Virus record (IMG/VR): IMGVR_UViG_3300037127_000056
Coordinates: 1 to 64,000 of that record
DNA from: a virus
Lineage: Duplodnaviria > Caudoviricetes
DNA: 64,000 nt
Reading direction: 5' to 3' (one strand)
The notes below the pieces were generated by a model that saw only the letters and a list, made by a program, of their open reading frames with translations, was not told where the DNA came from and searched no databases. Made by a program: the position numbers and the translations under genes. The first letter of the stretch is position 1, and every line of letters starts with the position of its first letter. Positions 16,417-64,000 of this stretch are shown piece after piece.

Positions 16417-16479
16417 GCGTCTAGGGGCCATCATTTTCCTTGATAGCCTTCGGTTCGTATGCTAGCTTACGTATCAACT

Positions 16480-17895
16480 ATGAACGTAAGCATGATCACA
16501 ATCGCATCCGCCGCCGCATCACCACCCGATATTCTCAAAAAGATCCTATCAGGTGGAGTGTGTATTGATGACCCAATCCACCGCCCCGACCCGGCCGACC
16601 ACATCGAGATAGACTTTTCTCAAAAGAACAATCTCACGCGCCGGTACTTGCATTCGATCGAGAAAATTCCCGTCCTCGAACGGGATGACGAAACTGCCGT
16701 AGCACGGGCACTTGATGGTGCCAGCCGACGGAGACACGCCGCGATGTTGGTTCTCGGTACGCTACCGGCGATGGTCCTTGACTACGCCGTGATGGTCGAA
16801 GAAGGTCACATGGGCGCATCGCATTGGGTGGAGGCGGTTGATGGAACGGATGACGATTTCGAGCAACGGTTCGATGATGTTGTCACGGCGATGAGACGGG
16901 CTCGCCGCCGAGGGGACACCGCGACGGTGATACGGGAGTGTCTGCGATTCACCCTTCACGTGGATTTCTTGGAGCTGGCGGCCGAGAAGACCGCGATCAC
17001 TGTTCGCAAGCTTCGAACAGCTGCTGTTGCAGCTCGGAGTGGGTCCAACGCTGATCGATCGTTCGTCATGGCATGGACTCAAGCAACTGGCATGGACATT
17101 CACACCGCTCTTTCCTACGCCCGCGATTTCACCGACGCCGACGCCGACATGGTGGGGCCACGTTCCACCTTGATTCAAAGCAATCTCCGGTTGGTCGTGT
17201 CGCTTGCAAACAAGGCAGTGGCCAACAACATGCACATCCTTGATTTGGTTCAAGAAGGGAATCTTGGCCTCATCCGGGCGGTTCAGAAATTCAACTGGCG
17301 CTTGGGCTACAAGTTCTCGACATACGCGACGTGGTGGATCCGACAGGCTATAACGCGAGGCGTCAATGACGGGTCTCGCACGATCAGGCTACCCACACAT
17401 CTCATCGAAGAATACAAGGAACTCCGACACGCCATGCGGAACATCTTGGTCGAACAAGGCCGAGAGCCGACGATCGCAGAGATCGTGGAAGCCAGCGGCA
17501 TGGACGAAGATCGGGTGGTATTCCTTCTCAATATGGTCCGCGAACCGATTTCGTTGGAGTCCCCGGTGCCAGGAGACGATGGGGACATGTCCCGGCTCGG
17601 GGACTTCTTGCCCGATCCGAACGGAAAGGACCCTGGCACGGAAACCGCCGCGGTTCAAATGGCTGAGGGGATCCGCCGCGTGCTTTCGACGTTGCCACCG
17701 CGGTTGGAGCTAATCCTCCGCCGCCGGAATGGTATCGGAGTCACCGATTCCGAGACGCGCAACGCTATCGGTGACGATGTAGGTGTGTCGTTCGAACGGA
17801 TCCGACAGTTGGAACTTCGAGCGCTGGAGCTACTGCGGTCCCGCGACCGGGTGAAGTTTTTCCGTGAGATCCTCGGTGAGATCGACGACATCTAG
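16480..17895 (+). CDS. RpoD-like (group 1) sigma-70 factor
   Basis: Region 1.2 RRYLHSI; region 2 [42 protein letters not shown]; region 3 RTIRLP, PISLE; region 4 ERIRQLE. Confidence 0.95.
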
Positions 17896-39849: not shown

Positions 39850-39867
39850 TTCCCGCCGGCGGGAATC
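39848..39867. repeat. dispersed palindrome copy 11 (20-bp perfect)
   Basis: GATTCCCGCCGGCGGGAATC over the -35 region of the tape-measure promoter (TACACT-7-ATG). Confidence 0.95.
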
Positions 39868-39897: not shown

Positions 39898-42800
39898 ATG
39901 GCTCTCAATCAGCTCGGCCTGGGAATGCTCTTCACGGCGCGCGATGCGGCATCCGCGACCGTGGTAGGGCTAACCAAGAACGTCGCCGGCCTTGAGGGTC
40001 GCAGCAAAGCAACCGCGTCCGCACTTCAGACTGGTCTGGGTGGTGTCGCGGCCGTTGCCGTTGGTGCCGGGTTGTCCAAGTTGGTCAACCAGGCGGCGGA
40101 CTTCGAATTCGGCTTGGCAGCGGTCAAGAACATCGCGAACGCCACGGCGTCGGACATGGTAATCCTACGGGACGCGGCATTCGAAGCCGGGCTCAAAACG
40201 CAATTTTCGCCGACCCAAGCCGTCGAGGGTTTGCAGAACCTCGCCGCCGCGGGCTTCAGTGCAGCGAAATCGGCGCAACTCCTAGACCGGTCTCTGATCC
40301 TCGCACAGGCTGGACAGATCAGCGTCGCCCAATCCACGGCGACGATGGCTACCGCGATCAAGCTATTCAACCTCCAGGGCAAGGACCAAGAAACCCTGGT
40401 TGACAAGTTACTCAAAACGACATCGATGTTCAAGATCCATAGTGTCGATCTCGAACAAGGTCTCGCCAAAACGGCTGCCGCTGCCCTCTTGACCAACCAG
40501 TCTGTGGATGAGATGTTGCTCACCGTCGGTCTCATCAAGAACGTCTTCCCGGACGCTGGCGAGGCGGGTAACTCGGTGAGTCGAGCGATGCAGTCCCTTT
40601 CACAGAAAGCCGACAAAGTCAAAAAAGATTTTGGCGTTGATGTGCTGGATGCGAATGGTGCGTTCAAGCCAGCCCTGGATCTCTTTCTGGAACTAGATGA
40701 AGCGTCTGCTAAAGCATTTCCCAATGCCGCTAAACGCTCGGAAAAGTTGAGCAGACTCCTTGGTTCCTTCGGCATCAAAGGCTTTTCCGCGGCGGTGGGC
40801 TCGATCGACGAATTCGCGACGTCGAACAACTTGACGCGCAAGCAAGCCGCGGCACAGCTACGAGGGGACATTGCTGGTGCAGAAGGAACTGCCGATCAGT
40901 TCTTGGCGGGTCTCAATGCGACATTCAAGGGACAGAGCATCATCTTGGAAGGTGCCGTCCAGACCCTCGCCGTCGCCCTCGGGGAACCGCTCCTGAAAGT
41001 GTTGGTTCCAGCGGTCAAACGTGCCGCAGAATTCGTTGCCGACCTCGCCAGGGTTGTCAAAGATGCCAACCCTGAGTTCAAGCAAATGATCGCCCGCATC
41101 GCCCTCACGGCGTCGGCCGTCCTCGCATTCGGCGGCATCGTTGCGATCCTCCGTGTCGGTCTCGGCCTCTTGCTACCGGCCCTCAAAGCCGCTGCCATCG
41201 GGTTCGCTGGTACCATGCTCGCCGCCATCCCATTGATTGCGGTGATCGGCGGTGTCGCCCTTGTGGCCCGCGCCGCGGCGAAATCCATGGACACCAGCTT
41301 CGGGGACGCCAAGGCTGCGGTCACCGGGTTCTTCGAAGACGCCGTGCTCGCGGGGAAGGCGTTCGTCCAGCTCATGCGGACCGGTGAGTTCAGTGGGTCC
41401 GTCAAGCAAGAACTGAACCGGGCTGAGAACGCCGGCATCAAACGATTCGTCATCCGGCTCGGGATGTTTGCGCATCGGATCGAGAAATTCTTCGAAGGCG
41501 TCGCTGGCGGTATCAATGCAACCATGGGACGAGTCCAGCCCGCGCTCAAGAGAGCTGGGCAAAGTCTCATGGGCCTTGGCAAGGCCATGGGGTTTGTGTC
41601 TCAGAAAGGTGATGGTGTCGGTGACAGCCTTCCTGGTGCGTCTTTCTTCGAAGCAGGGGCATCCATTGGGCGCGCGCTTGCAAGTATATTCACTGGCGCC
41701 GTGGACGTGTTCGGTGTTGTGGTCGATGTTGCAGCTGGCTTTATCAGCCGCATGAAAGGAATTTTTGAGACATTCAGCTCCGTGTTCACCGGGCTGTTTG
41801 ACAACCTGACCGAACTCGGCAACGAGATCGGTGTAACTTTCATGACAGTTGGCCGATCTGTCAATGGCGGCGCTGGACCCGCTGTCAACGTTGGCAAGAC
41901 AATTGCAAACGCTATTGGCCTTGTCACGATCGCATTGGTCAAAGCTGCCTCCATTGCGACCAAGATTGCAACAAGCCTGTTGCAGGCATTCCGCCCAATC
42001 AGCTACGTTGTCTTACCGATCCTAAGATTCGTGGCTAACCATCTCACCGAGATCATCTTGATTTTGGTCGGTATCAAGATGGCACGTTCCCTCCGTAACC
42101 TGTCAAGTCTCGCGGAGGGATTTACGGCGATCAAAACTGCAGCATCGGGTGCCGCCGCTGCGAGTGCATCGTTTCTGAGGACTCAGAAGAAGGCTCAGCC
42201 GGGGCGTGACGAGTTTGGTCGGTTCCTCCCCAAGGGTGCTCAAGCACCTGGAGGGGCCCGCCGCGACGCGACTGGTAGATTCTTGCCAGCCGGGGGTGTC
42301 GCTACCGCCGCTGATAAGACGGAAAAAGCTCTTGGCAAACTCGCCGTTGCAGCCGAAGTTCTCAAAGTGGGCTTCATGGGTTTCGCTCTTGGTACTGTAT
42401 TGGATCAATGGCTTGATATCAGTGGGCAAGTTTCGGACATGCTTACCAACCGGTCTGGCCGTGGAGCGGGTACCGCCAAAGGGACGAAGTTTGATCCCAC
42501 GGGGCGGGCGGCCAACCTCCGTAAGTTCGCAAAGGATATCGAAACCGACATCCAAAAATCGCAAAAAACGATCCAAAGTCTTGCCGAAGCCAAGGTCGTT
42601 CTACCACAATTTCGTGCAACTGCGGAACGTGCCAAAACCGGACAACTGCAAGAATCGGACGTAGGGGTGCTGCGAAAGATTGGTGGTTTCAAGGAAGAAG
42701 AAGCACTCATTACTCCAGACAAGTTGAACGCCGCGCAGGGTGAGATCCGGGACGCCCTCCGCGAAGCCGCCGCCATCGAAGCCGCGCAACGGGTTGCCCA

Positions 42801-43047
42801 ATCCGAGGACCTCGCGAAGGGCTTCGAGGCCATTGATCTCGAAGCGAAGTTCCGGGATGCTAGCATCGCCGCCAATGCCGTGGAGCGTGACAAGCTTGCG
42901 GCGATGCTGTCTCGCGAGATCAGCCAGCTCACAAATCGCCCCATCACCATACAGATCGATCAGGAAACCCTCGCCGTCGCGGTGTCCGAGGGCCAGCGAC
43001 AAGACGCGGCGCGCGGATTCCAGGCGGTGGGGCCAGGTGAGGGTTAG
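39898..43047 (+). CDS. tail tape measure protein
   Basis: 1049 aa, Ala/Gly-rich; TP901-type core (TQFSPTQAVEGLQNLAAAGF), hydrophobic segments, two RDxxGRF motifs. Confidence 0.92.
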   Translation: MALNQLGLGMLFTARDAASATVVGLTKNVAGLEGRSKATASALQTGLGGVAAVAVGAGLSKLVNQAADFEFGLAAVKNIANATASDMVILRDAAFEAGLKTQFSPTQAVEGLQNLAAAGFSAAKSAQLLDRSLILAQAGQISVAQSTATMATAIKLFNLQGKDQETLVDKLLKTTSMFKIHSVDLEQGLAKTAAAALLTNQSVDEMLLTVGLIKNVFPDAGEAGNSVSRAMQSLSQKADKVKKDFGVDVLDANGAFKPALDLFLELDEASAKAFPNAAKRSEKLSRLLGSFGIKGFSAAVGSIDEFATSNNLTRKQAAAQLRGDIAGAEGTADQFLAGLNATFKGQSIILEGAVQTLAVALGEPLLKVLVPAVKRAAEFVADLARVVKDANPEFKQMIARIALTASAVLAFGGIVAILRVGLGLLLPALKAAAIGFAGTMLAAIPLIAVIGGVALVARAAAKSMDTSFGDAKAAVTGFFEDAVLAGKAFVQLMRTGEFSGSVKQELNRAENAGIKRFVIRLGMFAHRIEKFFEGVAGGINATMGRVQPALKRAGQSLMGLGKAMGFVSQKGDGVGDSLPGASFFEAGASIGRALASIFTGAVDVFGVVVDVAAGFISRMKGIFETFSSVFTGLFDNLTELGNEIGVTFMTVGRSVNGGAGPAVNVGKTIANAIGLVTIALVKAASIATKIATSLLQAFRPISYVVLPILRFVANHLTEIILILVGIKMARSLRNLSSLAEGFTAIKTAASGAAAASASFLRTQKKAQPGRDEFGRFLPKGAQAPGGARRDATGRFLPAGGVATAADKTEKALGKLAVAAEVLKVGFMGFALGTVLDQWLDISGQVSDMLTNRSGRGAGTAKGTKFDPTGRAANLRKFAKDIETDIQKSQKTIQSLAEAKVVLPQFRATAERAKTGQLQESDVGVLRKIGGFKEEEALITPDKLNAAQGEIRDALREAAAIEAAQRVAQSEDLAKGFEAIDLEAKFRDASIAANAVERDKLAAMLSREISQLTNRPITIQIDQETLAVAVSEGQRQDAARGFQAVGPGEG

Positions 43048-49368: not shown

Positions 49369-49386
49369 TTTCCCGCCGGCGGGAAA
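49369..49386. repeat. dispersed palindrome copy 12
   Basis: Between divergent starts 49344 and 49407. Confidence 0.95.
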
Positions 49387-51159: not shown

Positions 51160-51594
51160 ATGAACGATGCAACTCAATGGAATCTTTGGGCATCTAATGG
51201 CTCCATCAGAACCGCGAGCAAGTTCCGGCTTCTTCCCGACACCTCCGGAACATCCCCGGGAGAGATGTGGCGTGTGGTCCGGACGTTCTATGCAGCGTCC
51301 AAGTCAAGTGCGATGTCCATTATGGAAGATGAAATCCGGTGTGCTGGCAACGAGCCGGTGTGGGATGACGGACCATATGAGCCCGCACCGGACGTCTTCA
51401 CTGGTAGGGTAGATGACGTTACCACAACCGATGCGGATCTCGCTAGAATGTGGTGTGTCGTAGATGTTTGTGGGCGTATGCATGTTCGGCCATGGGAACC
51501 CCATCTTCAATCACTTCGCTCAAAGCGATGGGCCGCACCGGTCTCCAGGGCACTTGCGCGGGAAACGTTGATTCCCGCCGGCGGGAATGGTTGA
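51160..51594 (+). CDS. hypothetical protein
   Basis: Own promoter. Confidence 0.6.
   Translation: MNDATQWNLWASNGSIRTASKFRLLPDTSGTSPGEMWRVVRTFYAASKSSAMSIMEDEIRCAGNEPVWDDGPYEPAPDVFTGRVDDVTTTDADLARMWCVVDVCGRMHVRPWEPHLQSLRSKRWAAPVSRALARETLIPAGGNG
51571..51588. repeat. dispersed palindrome copy 13
   Basis: ATTCCCGCCGGCGGGAAT, 2 nt before TTGACA. Confidence 0.95.
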
Positions 51595-58319: not shown

Positions 58320-58682
58320 ATGATCCGACTGACGAATGTACGGCGCCCTCCGGCACCGATCGAAATGGCGGGGCCGGCGACCACCGTCGTAAAGCGTCTC
58401 AGGTCGCAGGCTACCAAAACACAGTCCCGACAGAGGGCACTCTCTGGCCGTTCCGCAAAGCGGGGTGTCCGTCGAGAGCAAGTCCACGTCCCGGTGGGGA
58501 TCCGACTGAATCCCGGCGTGCCGGTCGAGGTACCCGACGAATGGCAGCACACCGCGGACTTCAAGCGGCTCGTGGTTCGCCTCCGTTGGGTGCGCGCAGA
58601 GTTCATCCCAGACGCGGATGATTCGGCTCCAAAGGCATCCCCGGTGAAGAAGTCTCGGAAGCGGAATAAGGGGGGCAACTGA
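58320..58682 (+). CDS. basic protein upstream of the sheath gene
   Basis: TAAACT-7-ATG; TGATG coupling to the sheath gene. Confidence 0.6.
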   Translation: MIRLTNVRRPPAPIEMAGPATTVVKRLRSQATKTQSRQRALSGRSAKRGVRREQVHVPVGIRLNPGVPVEVPDEWQHTADFKRLVVRLRWVRAEFIPDADDSAPKASPVKKSRKRNKGGN

Positions 58683-60886
58683 TGTCGAACCAATATCTTT
58701 CGCCTGGTGTCTACGCCAGGGAAGCTCAGCCGACACGGCGAGCATTCGATCCCGTCCAGACTTCGGTGGCCGGATTCGTCGGTGTCACGGAGCGCGGGCC
58801 TTTCACGCCCACCGAGGTCGTCGGTTTCGATGAGTTCGAGCGCATCTTCGGTGGGTTCATCACCGACAGCGAACTCCCACAATCGGTCCTGGCGTTCTTC
58901 CTCGGGGGCGGACAACGCGCCATCATCACTCGGGTGGTTCACTACACCGATGTTCTTGACCCGGCGACCAAGACGTCCGCAGCCGCTACCTTGAATCTGC
59001 TCACGGCAAGCGGTGCTCCCACGGCCGCCGTGATTGACGGAACCAATCCCGGACCATTCGACTTTGAACCCGGTGATCAGGTTGCGATTGATGTCGATGG
59101 TGGCGGTGCCGTTCTCGCAACGTTCGATGCCGCGCCCGGTGCCCAGACGTCGGTCAACTCCGAGGACTACGTCCTCGCCGATCTTCAGACCCTTGACGTA
59201 AGCGTTGACGGCGGTCTGGCGCAGACCATCACGTTCCTCACCGCGGAGTTCGCCAACATCGCGCTCGCGAAATCGGCCGAGGTCGCGGCGGTCATCAATG
59301 CCAAGATCTCGGGGGCGTTCGCCAGCGGTGCCGGTGGCGTCGTGACCATCACGTCGGATACTCGGGGCACGGCGTCAAGCGTCGAGATTACCGGTGGTAC
59401 CGCGGCGGCGGCGTTCGCATTCCCGGCGGGTGCTGCTGTTGGTACCGGTGACGTCGCGGATATCGATGCCGTGACGGGCGCTGAGGTCAAGACGGTCGTC
59501 GAAGCCGATGTTCCTGGTACCACTGTGACGGTCCTTGGTTCCGGGGCGGTGCGGCTGGAGAGCAACACCACGGGCCCGGCGTCCACGCTTCAGGTCGCCA
59601 GCTCCGCGATCCAGATCGCCTTGGGTTGGACCACCGCTACGGTAAGCGGGACGTCCGGTGCTGCGGCGCCAACGGTACAGATTGACGGCAAGACCGACGG
59701 TGAGTATGCCAACACCTTGCAGGTGCGCATCGAAGATGCCACCAACGGGGACGCCGAGTTCTTCAACCTCTCGGTGGAAGACAACGGGCTCGTTCTCGAA
59801 CGGTTCGCCAATCTCACCATGGACCCCCTGAATAGCGGGTTCGTTGAGGCGGCGCTTACCGCGAGCGACTACATCTCGGCGACTGACCTCGAACTGGCAG
59901 CGGCGGACACCCGCCCCGCCAACGGGTTGCTGGGACCACTCACCGGCGGTGATGATGGTCTCGTGGGTCTTGCCGATACCGACTTTCTCGGTGGTCGCAG
60001 CGCCAATGGTGCTACCGGTCTCCGGGTACTTGACCAGACTGTGACGTCCATCTTGTGTGTCCCTGGCCAGACGTCGGCGGTACTCCAGAATGGGATCGTC
60101 GAATACTGCGAGGTGATTCGAGGCGGCGCCATCTTCGGGATCTTGGATCCGCCGGCGGGTCTCAATGAGGATGAGGTCGTCACTCACTTCAAGGCGACCA
60201 ACGCCCTCACCGGGCTCAGCGAATTCGTGATCACCTACTGGCCGCGCCCGCTCATCATCAATCCCGATGAGGTGGTGTTTGGGAATGCCGCCAACATCGC
60301 GATCCCGGTGAGTGGTGCTGTTGCCGGGCGCTATGCCGCCACGGACAACCTGTTTCCCGGTGGCATCTACCAGTCCCCGGCGGGTGACAACGAGCGCGGG
60401 CAACTCCGGGGCGTCGTCGGCGTCGAGGAACCGCGGGTCCGCGAGCGGGCGGTTCAAGACAAGGTCTACCCCGAGCTGATCAACCCCATCACGATCAACG
60501 ACGACGGCGTCGTGTACATCAATGGGACGAAGACCTTGCGCGCCGATAGCAATTTCCCGCGGGTGGCTCAGCGTCGCGGGGCGATTTTCATCGAGCAAAC
60601 CATCATCAAGGGCTTGACCCCGTTCTTGCACTTCCCCAATGACCAAAGCCTCCGTATCGAGGTCACGCGGGTCGTGGAACAGTTCTTGCTTTCGCAGCTC
60701 AAGATCGATGCCTTCCGGAGCAAGGATCCATCCACCGCGTACATCGTCAACTTCGGGGAGGCACTCAACCCCCCGGACAAGATCGAGGCCGGCGAGTTGA
60801 ACGGCAAGATTGGCCTCGCGTTCGCCACACCCGCGGACTTCATCATCATCGAGTTCTCACGCTTGTCGGCGGACTCCACGATCTAA
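58682..60886 (+). CDS. contractile tail sheath protein
   Basis: YLSPGVY, AGFVGVTERGP, F...FGG, AFFLGGG, LTGGDDG, PVSGAVAG, INPI, FPND, PADFIIIEF. Confidence 0.95.
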   Translation: MSNQYLSPGVYAREAQPTRRAFDPVQTSVAGFVGVTERGPFTPTEVVGFDEFERIFGGFITDSELPQSVLAFFLGGGQRAIITRVVHYTDVLDPATKTSAAATLNLLTASGAPTAAVIDGTNPGPFDFEPGDQVAIDVDGGGAVLATFDAAPGAQTSVNSEDYVLADLQTLDVSVDGGLAQTITFLTAEFANIALAKSAEVAAVINAKISGAFASGAGGVVTITSDTRGTASSVEITGGTAAAAFAFPAGAAVGTGDVADIDAVTGAEVKTVVEADVPGTTVTVLGSGAVRLESNTTGPASTLQVASSAIQIALGWTTATVSGTSGAAAPTVQIDGKTDGEYANTLQVRIEDATNGDAEFFNLSVEDNGLVLERFANLTMDPLNSGFVEAALTASDYISATDLELAAADTRPANGLLGPLTGGDDGLVGLADTDFLGGRSANGATGLRVLDQTVTSILCVPGQTSAVLQNGIVEYCEVIRGGAIFGILDPPAGLNEDEVVTHFKATNALTGLSEFVITYWPRPLIINPDEVVFGNAANIAIPVSGAVAGRYAATDNLFPGGIYQSPAGDNERGQLRGVVGVEEPRVRERAVQDKVYPELINPITINDDGVVYINGTKTLRADSNFPRVAQRRGAIFIEQTIIKGLTPFLHFPNDQSLRIEVTRVVEQFLLSQLKIDAFRSKDPSTAYIVNFGEALNPPDKIEAGELNGKIGLAFATPADFIIIEFSRLSADSTI

Positions 60887-60934: not shown

Positions 60935-61441
60935 ATGCCCATCACTTCACCTGGAGCCGCGACGACCTTCCACGATTCTTTCCGATTCATCGTGCAGATC
61001 GAAGGCGTGACGCGTGCGAAATTCCGTAGCGTGTCGGAAATCACAATGACCCACGAGGACATCGATCACTGGGAGGGCGGGCGCGCCATCGCGTACAAGT
61101 CCCCGGGCCGCGTGACCGTTGACGACGTTACCTTGGAGCGGGGGGTCATCGACAACGACGACGACCTCTACTTCTGGTTCATCACCACGACCGATGTCAA
61201 CGTCGATTCCCCGCTCGGTGCTGGCATCGGTACCGGTCTTGGTCTCGATGACGAAGCCTACAAGCGGGACGTCGATATCGTGCAGCTCAAGCGGGACGGC
61301 ACGCCGCGGAAGCGGATTCGTTTGGTCAACGCCTATCCCAAAACGGTGACTCTGGGGTCGATGAACAACGAAGAGGACGCCAAGACCATCGAGTCGGTCG
61401 TCCTGCGCTACGACTACCCCCGCGTCATTCCGGTTCAGTAG
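60935..61441 (+). CDS. tail tube protein (T4 gp19-like)
   Basis: FRFIVQIEG...F..VS...EGG...PGR...VTLERG...W...KRDV.I...NAYP...IESVVL.YD; GGAGAGGA SD. Confidence 0.93.
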   Translation: MPITSPGAATTFHDSFRFIVQIEGVTRAKFRSVSEITMTHEDIDHWEGGRAIAYKSPGRVTVDDVTLERGVIDNDDDLYFWFITTTDVNVDSPLGAGIGTGLGLDDEAYKRDVDIVQLKRDGTPRKRIRLVNAYPKTVTLGSMNNEEDAKTIESVVLRYDYPRVIPVQ

Positions 61442-61911: not shown

Positions 61912-62559
61912 ATGAATGATGACGCATTGATGGCCGGCATCTACGAGAGCATGGTTGATCTCCTGGGACTCTCAACGGACCCCTTTGACCCGAAGTCACC
62001 CAAGGCGCTGACGGACGCCCTAGCCCTTGCCCTCATACGGCCGGAGAAGCGTGCCAAGGCGGTCCTGGAGTCGGCTACGGATTGGCCTCTGCACATAGTC
62101 ATTCGGTACCTTGTCACGCATTCTCCGATATACGTTAGACCCACCGGATGGGGCACGTATGTCCCGGGATCGTCGAGATGGAACACACCGGACACGTTGG
62201 TCACCACATTCGACTGGCTCATCGATAACGGGCGGGATGACCTCGTACAAGACGCCATGCTCTGGGGTGAGACGCAATGGGCAGTTGGGTTGTATGCCGG
62301 CGATGACCTTCTGGGGCGATACAAAGTATCGCAATCATCCACCATGTTCTCGTATGGATATGTAAGGGACGCGTCGGTCCCTTCGGGAACACGGTCTCAA
62401 ATCATCGATGACGATTCTATTTATAGGACCATCGTCGTCACACATCGAGACACTGATGCCGACTACTCCGTCTATAGTATCGACACGGTCAAACAGATAC
62501 TTGTTAAAACGGCACATAGTCCGGTTTACAACTGCTCTTGGATTGACATCATCCACTGA
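61912..62559 (+). CDS. hypothetical protein
   Basis: TTGATC-18-TAGGTT-7-ATG. Confidence 0.65.
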   Translation: MNDDALMAGIYESMVDLLGLSTDPFDPKSPKALTDALALALIRPEKRAKAVLESATDWPLHIVIRYLVTHSPIYVRPTGWGTYVPGSSRWNTPDTLVTTFDWLIDNGRDDLVQDAMLWGETQWAVGLYAGDDLLGRYKVSQSSTMFSYGYVRDASVPSGTRSQIIDDDSIYRTIVVTHRDTDADYSVYSIDTVKQILVKTAHSPVYNCSWIDIIH

Positions 62560-63097
62560 GTCCTCCGTCGAGTACTCGTAGTCGGGGTCGCGCTTTTCGT
62601 TCCCGGAGCCACCGGTAGATCGTTGACTTGCTGGCCCCGAGGTGTTTGCCTCGGACGTCGTACCAATGCGCGACGGAGCCGTACTTTGCCTTCCCGGCGA
62701 TGGCGGCATCCACGATTTCCCGCCGGCGGGAATCACTGAATCGTCCTCCCCCATCAAGAACCACGTCGGTATCATCCAATTCGATAACCTCGGGGTCCGG
62801 CTCATCCCTCACCGAATGCATCACCGCGGCGACGAACTCACGGAACATCCATGGGTGCCGCTCAGATGCCGTTGACGGTCGCCTCCATGTACCGACCCTC
62901 TCTGGGTGCGGGACAACACGGGCGCCGGCTACGGCTCGCTCAAGCTCACTGACGCCATTGAACGTCGCGGCGACCATCATGGTTCCAGCCACGGACATCC
63001 GCAACACGATTCGCCCACCGACGAGAGTTTCGGTTGTGAACAGCCGGCCTCGCGAAGTCTTGAACCTATCACCGGGCTTGTACTTGTACACATGCAT
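62549..63097 (-). CDS. protein with C-terminal HTH
   Basis: KHLGASKSTIYRWLRE HTH; TTGCCC-17-TAGGCT-6-ATG. Confidence 0.6.
   Translation of the reverse strand: MHVYKYKPGDRFKTSRGRLFTTETLVGGRIVLRMSVAGTMMVAATFNGVSELERAVAGARVVPHPERVGTWRRPSTASERHPWMFREFVAAVMHSVRDEPDPEVIELDDTDVVLDGGGRFSDSRRREIVDAAIAGKAKYGSVAHWYDVRGKHLGASKSTIYRWLRERKARPRLRVLDGGLSG
62717..62732. repeat. dispersed palindrome copy 16
   Basis: Inside the HTH gene. Confidence 0.95.
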
Positions 63098-63153: not shown

Positions 63154-63738
63154 ATGTCGGATTGGGTATGTGGGTGCGGTGCCGACCGAATTTTGCTTGA
63201 CTTCAGGGGGCGGCCGTTCCGAGGATGTTCGAGGTACCCGGAGTGCAAGGACACGGCTCGCGGCACCCCATGGGATCGCGCAATCTCAGTCTACGCGAAG
63301 CGGGCGCCACGGCTTGCCAACGGTCGTGTCGTCGCCGGCCTGGACTACGGCTACACGGTGTGCAAGATTTTGCGCGCCGCGGAGTCTCGTCTCGTGATCG
63401 TGACATTTTCAATCGGCGATGATGGCATGGTTGATGCATTGGTGAACGATGCCATTGACCGCGGCGTTGATGTCGAAGTATGGGCCGGCGGTGTCGCCCG
63501 GAAACAAGGTCAACGGCTCAGTGATCTCGGCGCCCGCGTATGGTTACCGAAGCCGGGAACCAACTTGCATGCCAAGTTCATCGTCGCCGATGGTCTCGTC
63601 GCGGTCGTCGGTTCCGCGAACCTGGCGCAGACCAGTTTGACCCGCAACCTAGAGGTCGGCGTGATCTCGACCAAGGATGTCTCGATGTGGGCGGGGCAAT
63701 GGCGGCGCGACGCCGTCCGACGATTCCGCGTGCTTTGA
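63154..63738 (+). CDS. zinc-ribbon + single-HKD phospholipase D-family nuclease
   Basis: CGC...FRGCSRYPEC (topoisomerase-type Zn ribbon); HAKFIVAD...GSANL...NLE. Confidence 0.85.
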   Translation: MSDWVCGCGADRILLDFRGRPFRGCSRYPECKDTARGTPWDRAISVYAKRAPRLANGRVVAGLDYGYTVCKILRAAESRLVIVTFSIGDDGMVDALVNDAIDRGVDVEVWAGGVARKQGQRLSDLGARVWLPKPGTNLHAKFIVADGLVAVVGSANLAQTSLTRNLEVGVISTKDVSMWAGQWRRDAVRRFRVL

Positions 63739-63740
63739 CC

Positions 63741-63770
63741 TTGATTTCCCGCCGGCGGGAATGCTAGTGT
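63741..63770 (+). promoter_or_regulatory. promoter with the palindrome in the -35/-10 spacer
   Basis: TTGATT-tcccgccggcgggaatgc-TAGTGT-7-ATG(63778). Confidence 0.75.
63746..63761. repeat. dispersed palindrome copy 17
   Basis: In the promoter spacer of ORF 63778. Confidence 0.95.
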
Positions 63771-63777
63771 CGCCGGT

Positions 63778-64000
63778 ATGAGTAACAAACGCTACATCAA
63801 AGAGCGGGACCTTCCGGCAGAACTCGAACCCATCGACGCCGTCACGATCGGCTATGGTCCCCAACTGACGCGCGCCGCGGATGCGTTGGTCCGCGGCCAG
63901 CACGTCTTGATCTCAACGGACTTGATGGTCTCGACGTTCGTATCACAGATCATCTCGGACCGTCTCAAGAATCAAGACCAGAGTCTCGCGGACCGCATCC
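63778..64000 (+). CDS. partial ORF resembling the N-terminus of the AAA+ ATPase of FtsH ternary systems
   Basis: Manual translation MSNKRYIKERDLPAELEPIDAVTIGYGPQLTRAADALVRGQHVLISTD..., open to the window end; family recalled, not searched. Confidence 0.55.
   Translation, partial: MSNKRYIKERDLPAELEPIDAVTIGYGPQLTRAADALVRGQHVLISTDLMVSTFVSQIISDRLKNQDQSLADRI

What the first reader, a model, noticed from the sequence alone, without database searches (positions are those of the whole stretch)
63741..64000. Missing AAA partner of the MoxR cluster starts 29 kb away behind a near-identical palindrome-containing promoter
Seen: the MoxR promoter (34514-34485, minus) reads TTGATT-[18 nt holding the palindrome]-TAGCGT-7-ATG. 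The promoter here reads TTGATT-[18 nt holding the palindrome]-TAGTGT-7-ATG. The ORF that follows is absent from the supplied ORF track and begins IKERDLPAEL...AV..GY..QL.R.ADAL.RG..VLI. I recall this as the N-terminus of the ternary system's AAA+ ATPase. Inference: the system is split across the genome but co-regulated through the palindrome, which links the two top findings.
Basis: partly seen in the sequence, partly recalled or inferred. Interest (0 to 1): 0.75.

Follow-up and report, generated by a model that had tools for sequence, protein, structure and literature searches.

The report
Detached FtsH partner of phage MoxR system
The gene starting at the window's end encodes the soluble FtsH-type ATPase-protease that a phage-borne MoxR-vWA gene cluster 29 kb away lacks, but the shared palindrome is a genome-wide repeat, so it does not show that the two are specifically co-regulated.

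Summary
TTGATT-18-TAGCGT-7-ATG (34514-34475, minus) and TTGATT-18-TAGTGT-7-ATG (63741-63780, plus) both carry the palindrome in the spacer.

The window is the first 64 kb of a 116-kb tailed-phage record. The ORF runs 63778-65871 and encodes 697 aa: a degenerate AAA domain, an active FtsH-type AAA domain and an intact M41 zinc protease, with no membrane anchor. This is the architecture Kaur et al. 2020 give for the third component of the 'FtsH ternary system'. Full-length bacterial homologues (40-45% identity) sit inside operons of the form rSAM-fvmX6-fvmX5-FtsH-fvmX7-MoxR-vWA. The phage cluster at 27.7-35.5 kb holds every one of those parts except FtsH. The 'missing partner' reading is well supported.

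The co-regulation reading is not shown:
- The 14-bp palindrome occurs 28 times in the genome.
- About 86 gene starts have the same leaderless-type design.
- At least five other starts also carry the palindrome in the spacer.
- No close relative exists to test conservation.

Separation is not unusual either: 16 of 43 bacterial loci have no MoxR within 10 kb of FtsH.

This scan had already noted the same protein type on other DNA and this phage's cluster. A second viral contig also carries this FtsH type, without MoxR in the part held.

The parts
63741..63746 (+). -35-like hexamer TTGATT. It contains the in-frame TGA that fixes 63778 as the first possible start codon.
63747..63760 (.). 14-bp perfect palindrome TCCCGCCGGCGGGA inside the 18-nt spacer. 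It lies 9 nt after the stop codon of the upstream PLD-like gene.
63765..63770 (+). -10-like hexamer TAGTGT, 7 nt before the ATG. There is no Shine-Dalgarno sequence, so this is a leaderless-type start.
63778..64000 (+). First 74 codons of the 697-aa FtsH-like ORF. It continues to base 65871 of the record (L004:3778-5871). Architecture: degenerate AAA domain (about 17-250), active AAA domain (about 295-515), Peptidase_M41 (520-680).
63154..63738 (+). Upstream co-directional gene encoding a 194-aa PLD-like (HKD) nuclease with a zinc ribbon. Its stop codon lies 2 nt before the TTGATT hexamer.
34509..34514 (-). -35-like hexamer TTGATT of the MoxR promoter. It overlaps the TGA stop codon of fvmX6.
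34496..34509 (.). 14-bp palindrome in the MoxR promoter spacer.
34485..34490 (-). -10-like hexamer TAGCGT, 7 nt before the MoxR ATG. There is no Shine-Dalgarno sequence.
34511..35458 (-). fvmX6-domain protein (315 aa).
   Evidence: PF20004, 5e-08
33506..34477 (-). MoxR AAA+ ATPase (323 aa; bpMoxR; P-loop GPPGTGKS).
32244..33509 (-). ivWA, the divergent vWA protein of FtsH ternary systems (421 aa).
   Evidence: PF19997, 3e-13
31629..32192 (-). fvmX5-domain protein (187 aa).
   Evidence: PF20003, 59.5 bits
31367..31627 (-). 86-aa ORF in the position that the fvmX3-analog holds in bacterial operons. No family match was found.
28274..31366 (-). fvmX7-domain giant protein (1030 aa).
   Evidence: PF20005, 3e-31
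27678..28277 (-). Small radical SAM protein (199 aa; Fer4_12 and Radical_SAM).

Best explanation
The ORF at 63778-65871 encodes the FtsH component of a phage-borne 'FtsH ternary system' (vWA-MoxR subsystem 3 of Kaur et al. 2020, simple radical-SAM subtype). It is a soluble protein in which a catalytically dead AAA domain replaces the membrane anchor of ordinary FtsH. An active FtsH-type AAA motor and an intact M41 zinc protease follow.

All other parts of the system (fvmX6, MoxR, ivWA, fvmX5, fvmX7, radical SAM) lie together on the opposite strand at 27.7-35.5 kb. The FtsH gene has been moved out of its usual slot between fvmX5 and fvmX7 into the tail-gene region.

Shown: the architecture, the family, the operon context of the bacterial homologues, and the completeness of the set in this phage.

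Inferred: the seven or eight proteins still work together as one MoxR/vWA/FtsH chaperone-protease machine.

Expression (inferred): like most genes of this phage, both MoxR and FtsH have a -10-like TAnnnT 7 nt before an ATG that has no Shine-Dalgarno sequence. Each is probably transcribed as a leaderless mRNA from its own promoter.

Palindrome (inferred): it is a genome-wide 14-bp dyad with 28 copies, most simply the binding site of a dimeric phage or host DNA-binding protein. Where it fills the -35/-10 spacer, a bound protein would block RNA polymerase. That applies to MoxR, FtsH and at least five other genes, so the two motors may belong to one small regulon. This is a shared class, not a private link, and it is untested.
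For: Identity of the protein:
- Pfam AAA (1.8e-39) and Peptidase_M41 (1.1e-32).
- Motifs GPPGTGKT, KFVG, FDEID, TTN, R420/R423, HEAGH and D607 are all present. The N-domain has no P-loop and no Walker B acidic pair.
- Full-length model pLDDT 86.8. FtsH 3kds aligns to residues 251-695 at Z 25.1. Tandem-AAA Rix7, NVL and p97 align to 17-513 with 435-457 residues at Z about 24.
- N-domain model pLDDT 89.9. All 50 top matches in two searches are AAA+ modules, at Z 10-13.3 over about 200 of 250 residues.

Family and context:
- Hundreds of ~700-aa bacterial homologues at 40-45% identity over 95-100% of the length.
- In 27 of 43 loci with full flanks the order is rSAM-(X6-X5)-FtsH-(X3a)-X7-MoxR-ivWA.
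- Phage cluster parts identified.
- The family search for AAA (PF00004) finds only one FtsH-type AAA gene in the phage.
- Parallel divergence from bacterial counterparts: FtsH 42-45%, MoxR 45-46%, rSAM 45-52%, accessory proteins 23-34%.

Promoters:
- TAnnnT at 6-7 nt from start codons, 86 cases against about 18-32 at other spacings.
- No SD motif, and both start codons are fixed by in-frame stops.

Palindrome:
- 28 exact 14-mers, about half intergenic against roughly 10-17% non-coding DNA, including sites between divergent starts that would not be transcribed.
Against: - The FtsH gene is 29.3 kb from the cluster, in a different module of the genome. No experiment or comparative datum links them functionally.
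- A second virus (G002) has this FtsH type with no MoxR in the 113 kb held, so the protein might act alone.
- The phage proteins are equidistant from all bacterial copies, so common descent of the FtsH and MoxR genes could not be shown by congruence (rho = -0.11).
- The two -10-like boxes match TATAAT at only 3 of 6 positions and fail a generic promoter scan.
- No binding protein for the palindrome is known, and about half the copies are inside genes.
- The function of FtsH ternary systems is itself only a computational prediction (PMC7159879; nothing further found).
Confidence: 0.78

Rival explanations
1. A palindrome-binding regulator specifically couples expression of the MoxR cluster and the distant FtsH gene, so that the split system is switched as one unit.
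For: - Both promoters have the dyad in the spacer, the classic repressor position.
- Only 6-7 of about 86 candidate promoters do so. If placement were random, roughly 0.5% of gene pairs would both fall in this class.
- Both share an exact TTGATT and TAGnGT.
Against: - The calculation is post hoc.
- At least five unrelated genes of unknown function share the design, including a 48-aa hydrophobic ORF with the identical TTGATT-palindrome junction.
- Other genes of the cluster (fvmX6, fvmX5, the 31591 ORF) have their own promoters without the palindrome.
- TTGATT also abuts the palindrome at 39852 and 51574, where it is not at -35 distance from any -10. Part of the '-35 identity' may therefore be the repeat's own extended arm.
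- No relative exists to test conservation.
Confidence: 0.25
2. The promoter resemblance is incidental. The palindrome is a dispersed repeat whose role is not control of initiation at these promoters. It could be an RNA hairpin marking the 3' ends of upstream genes, a structural or packaging site, or a selfish repeat. It happens to lie next to generic leaderless promoters.
For: - Many intergenic copies lie 2-26 nt after the stop codon of a co-directional upstream gene: 34497, 39852, 60898, 63748, 74507, 78457.
- About half of the copies are inside genes.
- The register relative to the -10 box varies from 5 to more than 40 nt.
Against: - No U-tract follows the hairpin on either strand, since the flanks are T...A and only extend the stem. 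No intrinsic terminator is called there.
- Copies between divergent leaderless starts (49372, 95616, 111778) would not be transcribed, which argues for a role at DNA level.
- Intragenic copies keep the full 14-18-bp dyad, which suggests selection.
Confidence: 0.35
3. The FtsH-like protein works independently of the MoxR cluster, as a stand-alone soluble phage protease (for example degrading host or phage regulators). Its presence in the same genome reflects separate acquisition.
For: - It is not in the cluster.
- Virus G002 carries the same protein type next to an unrelated radical SAM gene, with no MoxR or fvmX7 in 113 kb.
- 16 of 43 bacterial loci have no MoxR within 10 kb.
- Other large phages encode FtsH homologues.
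Against: - The FtsH genes of other phages are the ordinary type and match only residues from about 155-258 onward.
- This type is tied to fvmX7 in 34 of 43 bacterial loci.
- In the one split bacterial genome examined, the MoxR-ivWA pair is still present 39 kb away.
- The phage holds the complete set with exactly one copy of each part, at parallel divergence.
- G002 is only 55% complete.
Confidence: 0.12

Closest known systems
FtsH component of the 'FtsH ternary system' (vWA-MoxR subsystem 3; Kaur, Burroughs, Iyer, Aravind, eLife 2020, PMC7159879), simple radical-SAM subtype
   Same: - Tandem FtsH-type AAA domains with a dead first domain and an active second one.
- Full-length homology (40-45%) to proteins encoded inside rSAM-fvmX6-fvmX5-FtsH-fvmX7-MoxR-ivWA operons.
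- All partner families are present in the same genome.
   Different: - It is encoded by a tailed phage, not by a myxobacterium, planctomycete or actinobacterium.
- The FtsH gene is detached from fvmX5 and fvmX7 as well as from MoxR-vWA, 29 kb away on the other strand.
- The gene order in the remaining cluster is rearranged (X6-MoxR-ivWA-X5-orf86-X7-rSAM).
- The MoxR P-loop is the canonical GPPGTGKS, not the GxxxTAKS variant the paper says is often seen.
- The paper's section on this system does not mention the M41 protease domain, which is intact here and across the bacterial family.
Canonical membrane-bound FtsH / m-AAA / i-AAA proteases (e.g. PDB 3kds, 2dhr, 6nyy, 6az0)
   Same: AAA module plus M41 zinc protease, with a conserved pore loop, Walker motifs, arginine fingers and HEXXH. 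Structural match Z 23-25 over residues 251-695.
   Different: There are no N-terminal transmembrane helices or periplasmic domain. A 250-residue degenerate AAA domain takes their place, so the protein is predicted to be soluble with a two-tier, type-II AAA layout.
Type II (tandem) AAA ATPases Rix7/NVL/p97-Cdc48
   Same: D1 plus D2 layout. The model aligns over residues 17-513 with 435-457 aligned positions at Z about 24.
   Different: D1 here cannot bind or hydrolyse ATP. There is a C-terminal protease and no N-terminal substrate-adaptor domain.
Genome-wide operator repeats of actinobacteriophages (stoperators of Cluster A mycobacteriophages; 17-bp palindromes of Cluster O). Recalled from the literature, not checked here.
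   Same: A short sequence repeated some 25-30 times across a phage genome, at promoters and inside or between genes.
   Different: - This element is a perfect GC-rich dyad, not an asymmetric 13-mer.
- No repressor or integrase was identified.
- Its register relative to promoters is variable.

Membership tests
FtsH component of the FtsH ternary system (Kaur et al. 2020) | Two FtsH-type AAA+ domains in tandem | tested here: met
   Rix7, NVL and p97 D1-D2 align to model residues 17-513 (435-457 residues, Z about 24). The N-domain folded alone matches only AAA+ modules (Z 10-13.3). A sequence-profile comparison of the N-domain against the C-domain was not significant (probability 1.4%).
FtsH component of the FtsH ternary system (Kaur et al. 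2020) | N-terminal AAA domain is inactive (P-loop and Walker B lost) | tested here: met
   VLIS-TDLMVSTF stands at the P-loop position and IIMIPFLG at the Walker B position. The bacterial consensus is degenerate in the same way.
FtsH component of the FtsH ternary system (Kaur et al. 2020) | Second AAA domain has all the features of an active FtsH-type ATPase | tested here: met
   GPPGTGKT, FDEID, TTN sensor-1, R420/R423 and the KFVG pore loop are present. Pfam AAA 1.8e-39.
FtsH component of the FtsH ternary system (Kaur et al. 2020) | Orthology to proteins encoded within FtsH-vWA-MoxR operons | tested here: met
   40-45% identity over 95-100% of the length to proteins flanked by fvmX5, fvmX6, fvmX7, bpMoxR and ivWA.
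FtsH ternary system (whole system) | MoxR, divergent vWA and FtsH all present in one genome | tested here: met
   bpMoxR 2e-56, ivWA 3e-13, plus fvmX5, fvmX6, fvmX7 and rSAM at 27.7-35.5 kb, and FtsH at 63.8-65.9 kb.
FtsH ternary system (whole system) | Components encoded as one contiguous neighbourhood (typical, not universal) | tested here: not met
   FtsH lies 29.3 kb from MoxR on the other strand. I do not treat contiguity as defining: 16 of 43 bacterial loci lack MoxR within 10 kb, and in one genome the MoxR-ivWA pair is 39 kb away.
FtsH ternary system (whole system) | MoxR P-loop variant GxxxTAKS (described as frequent, not universal) | tested here: not met
   The phage MoxR has GPPGTGKS.
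Canonical membrane FtsH | N-terminal transmembrane helices and periplasmic domain | tested here: not met
   The N-terminal 250 residues fold as a soluble AAA-like alpha/beta plus lid domain (pLDDT 89.9). The only hydrophobic stretch (residues 113-131) is the core beta-strand at the Walker B position. No dedicated transmembrane predictor was run.
Canonical membrane FtsH | AAA module followed by an M41 protease with an HEXXH zinc site | tested here: met
   Pfam Peptidase_M41 1.1e-32, with HEAGH and D607. 3kds aligns at Z 25.1.
Sigma-70-type promoter | Hexamers close to TTGACA/TATAAT at 16-18 nt spacing | tested here: not met
   TTGATT matches at 4 of 6 positions and TAGTGT/TAGCGT at 3 of 6. Neither site is called by the consensus scan.
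Leaderless-mRNA promoter (TAnnnT -10 box 6-7 nt before the start codon, no SD) | -10 box at a fixed short distance from a start codon with no Shine-Dalgarno sequence | tested here: met
   Both sites fit. As a class the design is enriched, 86 cases against about 18-32 at control spacings. No SD motif within 20 nt.
Leaderless-mRNA promoter (TAnnnT -10 box 6-7 nt before the start codon, no SD) | Transcription start at or next to the start codon | not testable with these tools
   This needs 5'-end mapping in the infected host.
Repressor operator | Dyad-symmetric site overlapping core promoter elements | tested here: met
   The 14-bp perfect dyad lies inside the spacer at both sites.
Repressor operator | A cognate DNA-binding protein and an effect on transcription | not testable with these tools
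   No binding protein was identified. The HTH protein at 62549-63097 is only one candidate.

The most novel reading that the evidence does not exclude
A tailed phage has taken over a complete bacterial FtsH-MoxR-vWA conflict machine and scattered its genes into separate genome modules. It keeps the two ATPase motors under one dyad-operator regulon, together with a few small unknown genes. The machine would then be switched on at a defined point of infection, for the phage's own ends: counter-defence, superinfection exclusion or host takeover.
Probability: 0.2. Interest if true: 0.7.

Novelty: new variant of a known kind. Interest (0 to 1): 0.5.

Why it matters
FtsH ternary systems are known only from a 2020 computational survey. 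I found no experimental work on them, and PADLOC has no models for them.

This phage offers a compact and complete copy: seven identified parts plus one unassigned 86-aa ORF, each gene apparently with its own simple promoter. That makes it a tractable handle for finding out what the machine does. It also raises the question of why a virus would carry a system predicted to act against invaders.

Showing that the detached gene is the true FtsH component completes the parts list for any reconstitution. It also shows that the system tolerates physical separation of its genes, in phage and bacteria alike.

The co-regulation idea would matter only if the palindrome is shown to be an operator.

Tried and rejected
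- **Profile-profile comparison of the N-domain against the active AAA domain (hhalign).** Probability was 1.4% and only the Walker B strand aligned, so sequence alone does not show the N-domain is AAA. Structure does.
- **Close relatives in known phages and viral contigs.** Only ordinary FtsH or AAA matches from residue ~155-258 onward. A search seeded from the N-domain found one virus, G002.
- **Relatives of the phage through the palindrome.** 32 viral contigs carry one copy each, which is about chance, so no relative with this repeat family exists there. The protein search found nothing above 49% identity in 5.8 billion proteins. Conservation of the promoters therefore cannot be tested now.
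- **Congruence of FtsH and MoxR similarity across 37 bacterial loci.** rho = -0.11. The result is uninformative because the phage proteins are equidistant from all bacterial copies.
- **fvmX3-analog (PF20002) in the phage.** No match. The 86-aa ORF in its position has only a 24-residue similarity at E 0.001 in a single comparison.
- **PADLOC.** Only generic AAA models (IetA, TRIP13) hit the FtsH-like protein, and no ternary-system models exist there.
- **Intrinsic-terminator reading of the palindrome.** No T-tract follows, and the scan does not call it.
- **Host identification.** No tRNAs. The sigma factor leans weakly towards Actinomycetota. The sheath is only 23-27% identical to Streptomyces and Bacillus phages. 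The host remains open.
- **Pfam on the other palindrome-in-spacer genes.** No families, so the class cannot be characterised.

Full report
**Observation.** On the minus strand the sequence reads TTGATT (34514-34509), 18 nt, TAGCGT (34490-34485), 7 nt, ATG (34477). On the plus strand it reads TTGATT (63741-63746), 18 nt, TAGTGT (63765-63770), 7 nt, ATG (63778). Both spacers hold CCCGCCGGCGGG. An open frame begins at 63778 with MSNKRYIKERDLPAEL and runs off the window.

**Where the window lies.** The window is bases 1-64000 of a 116,337-bp IMG/VR virus record with 59% G+C. It is a tailed phage. It encodes a tail sheath (58682-60886), a T4 gp19-like tube protein (60935-61441), a tape measure protein (39898-43047), a portal protein (76688-78430), ribonucleotide reductase, helicases and a primary-like sigma factor (16459-17895). 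The nearest isolated phages are very distant: Streptomyces and Bacillus myoviruses at 23-27% sheath identity.

**The ORF.** Read from the whole record, the frame is 63778-65871 and encodes 697 aa.
- Pfam finds AAA at residues 300-432 (1.8e-39) and Peptidase_M41 at 520-680 (1.1e-32), and nothing for residues 1-290.
- The second domain has every catalytic element: GPPGTGKT, the KFVG pore loop, FDEID, TTN, R420/R423, and HEAGH with D607.
- An AlphaFold model built on 41 family members is confident, with mean pLDDT 86.8.
- FtsH structures overlay residues 251-695 (3kds, Z 25.1, 415 residues).
- Tandem-AAA proteins overlay residues 17-513 across both their D1 and D2 domains (Rix7 7swl, 435 residues, Z 24.7; NVL 9bji, 454 residues, Z 23.9).
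- Folded alone, the N-terminal 250 residues (pLDDT 89.9) match only AAA+ modules in a Foldseek-independent search of 48,161 chains and in Foldseek. Examples are RFC at Z 13.3, NSF-D2 at 12.7, p97-D1 at 12.0 and FtsHi at 11.9, each over roughly 200 residues covering the alpha/beta and lid subdomains.
- This N-domain has no P-loop (VLIS-TDLMVSTF) and no Walker B acidic pair (IIMIPFLG), and the bacterial consensus is degenerate in the same way.
- A sequence-profile comparison of the N-domain and C-domain was not significant, so the AAA assignment of the first domain rests on structure.

The protein is therefore a dead AAA domain, an active FtsH-type AAA domain and an M41 protease, without the membrane anchor of ordinary FtsH.

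**What it belongs to.** Kaur et al. 2020 (PMC7159879, section 21) define the third component of the 'FtsH ternary system' as a protein with two FtsH-type AAA+ domains, the first catalytically inactive and the second active. The phage protein fits.
- A search of 5.8 billion proteins finds hundreds of ~700-aa proteins at 41-45% identity over 89-100% of the query, most of them over 94%.
- The 80 best reference-genome loci are from Myxococcota and Planctomycetota, plus MAGs labelled Proteobacteria.
- Their gene neighbourhoods are the canonical operon. In L007 the order is radical SAM, fvmX6, fvmX5, FtsH, fvmX3-analog, fvmX7, bpMoxR, ivWA.
- Among 43 loci with 10 kb on both sides, 27 carry MoxR 3.5-8.7 kb downstream on the same strand, and 34 carry fvmX7.

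**The phage cluster.** On the minus strand the cluster holds:
- fvmX6 (34511-35458)
- bpMoxR (33506-34477)
- ivWA (32244-33509)
- fvmX5 (31629-32192)
- an 86-aa ORF in the position of the fvmX3-analog
- fvmX7 (28274-31366)
- a small radical SAM protein (27678-28277)

It lacks only FtsH, and the family search for AAA (PF00004) finds only one FtsH-type AAA gene in the phage. The phage proteins diverge from their bacterial counterparts in parallel: FtsH 42-45%, MoxR 45-46%, rSAM 45-52%, and the accessory proteins 23-34%.

**How unusual the split is.** It is less unusual than it looks.
- Sixteen of the 43 bacterial loci have no MoxR within 10 kb of FtsH.
- In one such genome the bpMoxR-ivWA pair lies about 39 kb from the rSAM-X6-X5-FtsH-X7 module, next to an unrelated DinB-type polymerase gene.
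- What is particular to the phage is that FtsH alone has left, while fvmX5, fvmX6, fvmX7 and rSAM stay with MoxR-vWA. The order of the remaining genes is also rearranged.

**The promoters.** Both ATGs are the first possible start after an in-frame TGA that lies inside the TTGATT hexamer. Neither has a Shine-Dalgarno-like motif within 20 nt, whereas the tube gene has GGAGAGGAG. Across the genome, TAnnnT lies 6-7 nt before an ATG or GTG that opens a frame of at least 60 codons 86 times, against 18-32 at other spacings. Leaderless-type promoters thus precede most genes, including fvmX6, fvmX5 and the small ORF at 31591 inside the cluster. The design TTGAnn-17/18-TAnnnT-6/7-ATG is the phage's general one. 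A generic sigma-70 scan does not call either site, because TAGCGT and TAGTGT match TATAAT at 3 of 6 positions. Their promoter status is therefore a class-level inference.

**The palindrome.**
- All 28 exact copies of the 12-mer in the genome are the 14-mer TCCCGCCGGCGGGA.
- 17 of them extend to 16 bp and 7 to 18 bp, and 28 of the 32 occurrences of CGCCGGCG belong to the element.
- In the window there are 20 matches with up to one mismatch, against 0.64 expected.
- About half of the copies are intergenic or at gene boundaries, against roughly 10-17% non-coding DNA. The rest are inside genes and keep the full dyad.
- Placement relative to promoters varies. It lies in the spacer at MoxR, FtsH, 5046(-), 11516(+), 50811(+), 105297(+) and 97934(-). 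It lies just upstream of a -35 at 51574, 92166 and 111778. It lies between divergent starts at 49372, 95616 and 111778. It lies a few nucleotides after stop codons at several sites.
- The 97953(-) site has exactly the MoxR design (TTGATT, palindrome, TATGGT, 7 nt, ATG) and drives a 48-aa hydrophobic ORF.
- TTGATT also abuts the palindrome at 39852 and 51574, where it is not at -35 distance from any -10. Part of the '-35 identity' may therefore be the repeat's own extended arm.
- The MoxR/FtsH pair is among the most similar promoter pairs (22 of 38 ungapped; mean 14.3, sd 2.3) but not the most similar.
- A DNA-binding dimer is the simplest reading, because copies between divergent leaderless starts would not be transcribed and no T-tract follows the hairpin.

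If that reading is right, a bound protein at the spacer sites would block initiation, and MoxR and FtsH would share a regulon with at least five other genes. This is possible, and mildly favoured by the rarity of the spacer placement (6-7 of about 86 promoters). The argument is post hoc and nothing here tests it. No relative of the phage carries the repeat and no protein above 49% identity to the FtsH exists in the collection, so conservation cannot be used.

**Other viruses.** Searches seeded from the AAA motifs found only ordinary FtsH-type matches starting at residue ~231 or later. A search seeded from the N-domain found one other viral contig, IMGVR_UViG_3300027811_000003 (113 kb, 55% complete, AT-rich, with a sheath-like gene).
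- It encodes a full-length protein of this type, 40% identical to the phage's.
- That gene is followed directly by an unrelated 295-aa radical SAM gene.
- There is no MoxR or fvmX7 in the part held.

This shows that the phage is not the only virus with this FtsH type. It also keeps open a minority reading in which the protein can act without MoxR-vWA.

**Known or new.** The system and this protein type were described computationally in 2020. I found no experimental study and no report of a phage-borne copy in the held library, and PADLOC v2 has no models for it. Earlier notes of this scan describe the same protein type in bacteria and the cluster in this same phage. I treated those notes as leads and repeated the tests.

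**Verdict.**
- The gene is a new member of a known protein family.
- The phage-borne, rearranged system with a detached FtsH is a new variant of a known kind.
- The identity claim is strong.
- The co-regulation claim is an untested hypothesis, weakened by the genome-wide spread of the palindrome.

Noticed in passing
L206:9989-13092 (IMGVR_UViG_3300027811_000003): A second, unrelated AT-rich virus (113 kb, 55% complete) encodes a full-length soluble tandem-AAA FtsH, 40% identical to the phage's. A 295-aa radical SAM gene follows it directly. The record holds no MoxR or fvmX7. Its FtsH start is also preceded by TACTAT-6-ATG.
   Followed up: partly
whole record; e.g. window 15256, 22133, 45698, 35458, 32192: Leaderless-type promoters are pervasive. 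TAnnnT lies 6-7 nt before 86 start codons, against about 18-32 at control spacings, often with TTGAC 17-18 nt upstream. Most genes seem to have their own promoter.
   Followed up: partly
record 97791-97970 (L006:1791-1970), minus strand: A third promoter with the exact TTGATT-palindrome-TAnnnT-7-ATG design drives a 48-aa hydrophobic ORF (MNKEAIVHFIHIATT...), possibly a small membrane protein.
   Followed up: partly
window 63154-63738 (+): The gene directly upstream of FtsH encodes a 194-aa PLD/HKD nuclease-like protein with an N-terminal zinc ribbon. It resembles DrmC of DISARM in PADLOC (6e-15) and has its own TACATT-7-ATG start. A 158-aa ORF with no family match follows FtsH 3 nt after its stop codon (65874-66350).
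   Followed up: partly
window 16459-17895 (+): The phage encodes a 478-aa primary-like sigma factor (regions 2, 3 and 4), 45-47% identical over its C-terminal half to bacterial RpoD/SigA. Named hits lean towards Actinomycetota. It could be what reads the TTGAnn/TAnnnT promoters.
   Followed up: partly
G001 (JACKET010000001.1) about 597-600 kb and 628-650 kb; L025, L011: In a bacterial MAG the bpMoxR-ivWA pair lies about 39 kb from the rSAM-fvmX6-fvmX5-FtsH-fvmX7 module, next to a DinB-type polymerase gene. The same genome also holds a separate beta-propeller-type MoxR system (bpX6) at about 55 kb.
   Followed up: partly
window 39852, 51574, 62719, and record 66684, 86040: The palindrome comes in two flank flavours, TTT...AAA and (G)ATT...AAT(C), the latter giving up to a 20-bp dyad GATTCCCGCCGGCGGGAATC. 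TTGATT next to it is therefore not always a -35 box.
   Followed up: no
P0002-P0014: Proteins of about 980 aa score higher than the 700-aa family but cover only 53-66% of the query. They carry many P-loop Pfam hits plus M41. They may be a related form with a longer or active first domain.
   Followed up: no
record 93064-95586 (L005:17064-19586), minus strand: An 840-aa protein behind a palindrome-bearing promoter has a weak homing-endonuclease (Hom_end) match at residues 215-299, which hints at an intein.
   Followed up: no
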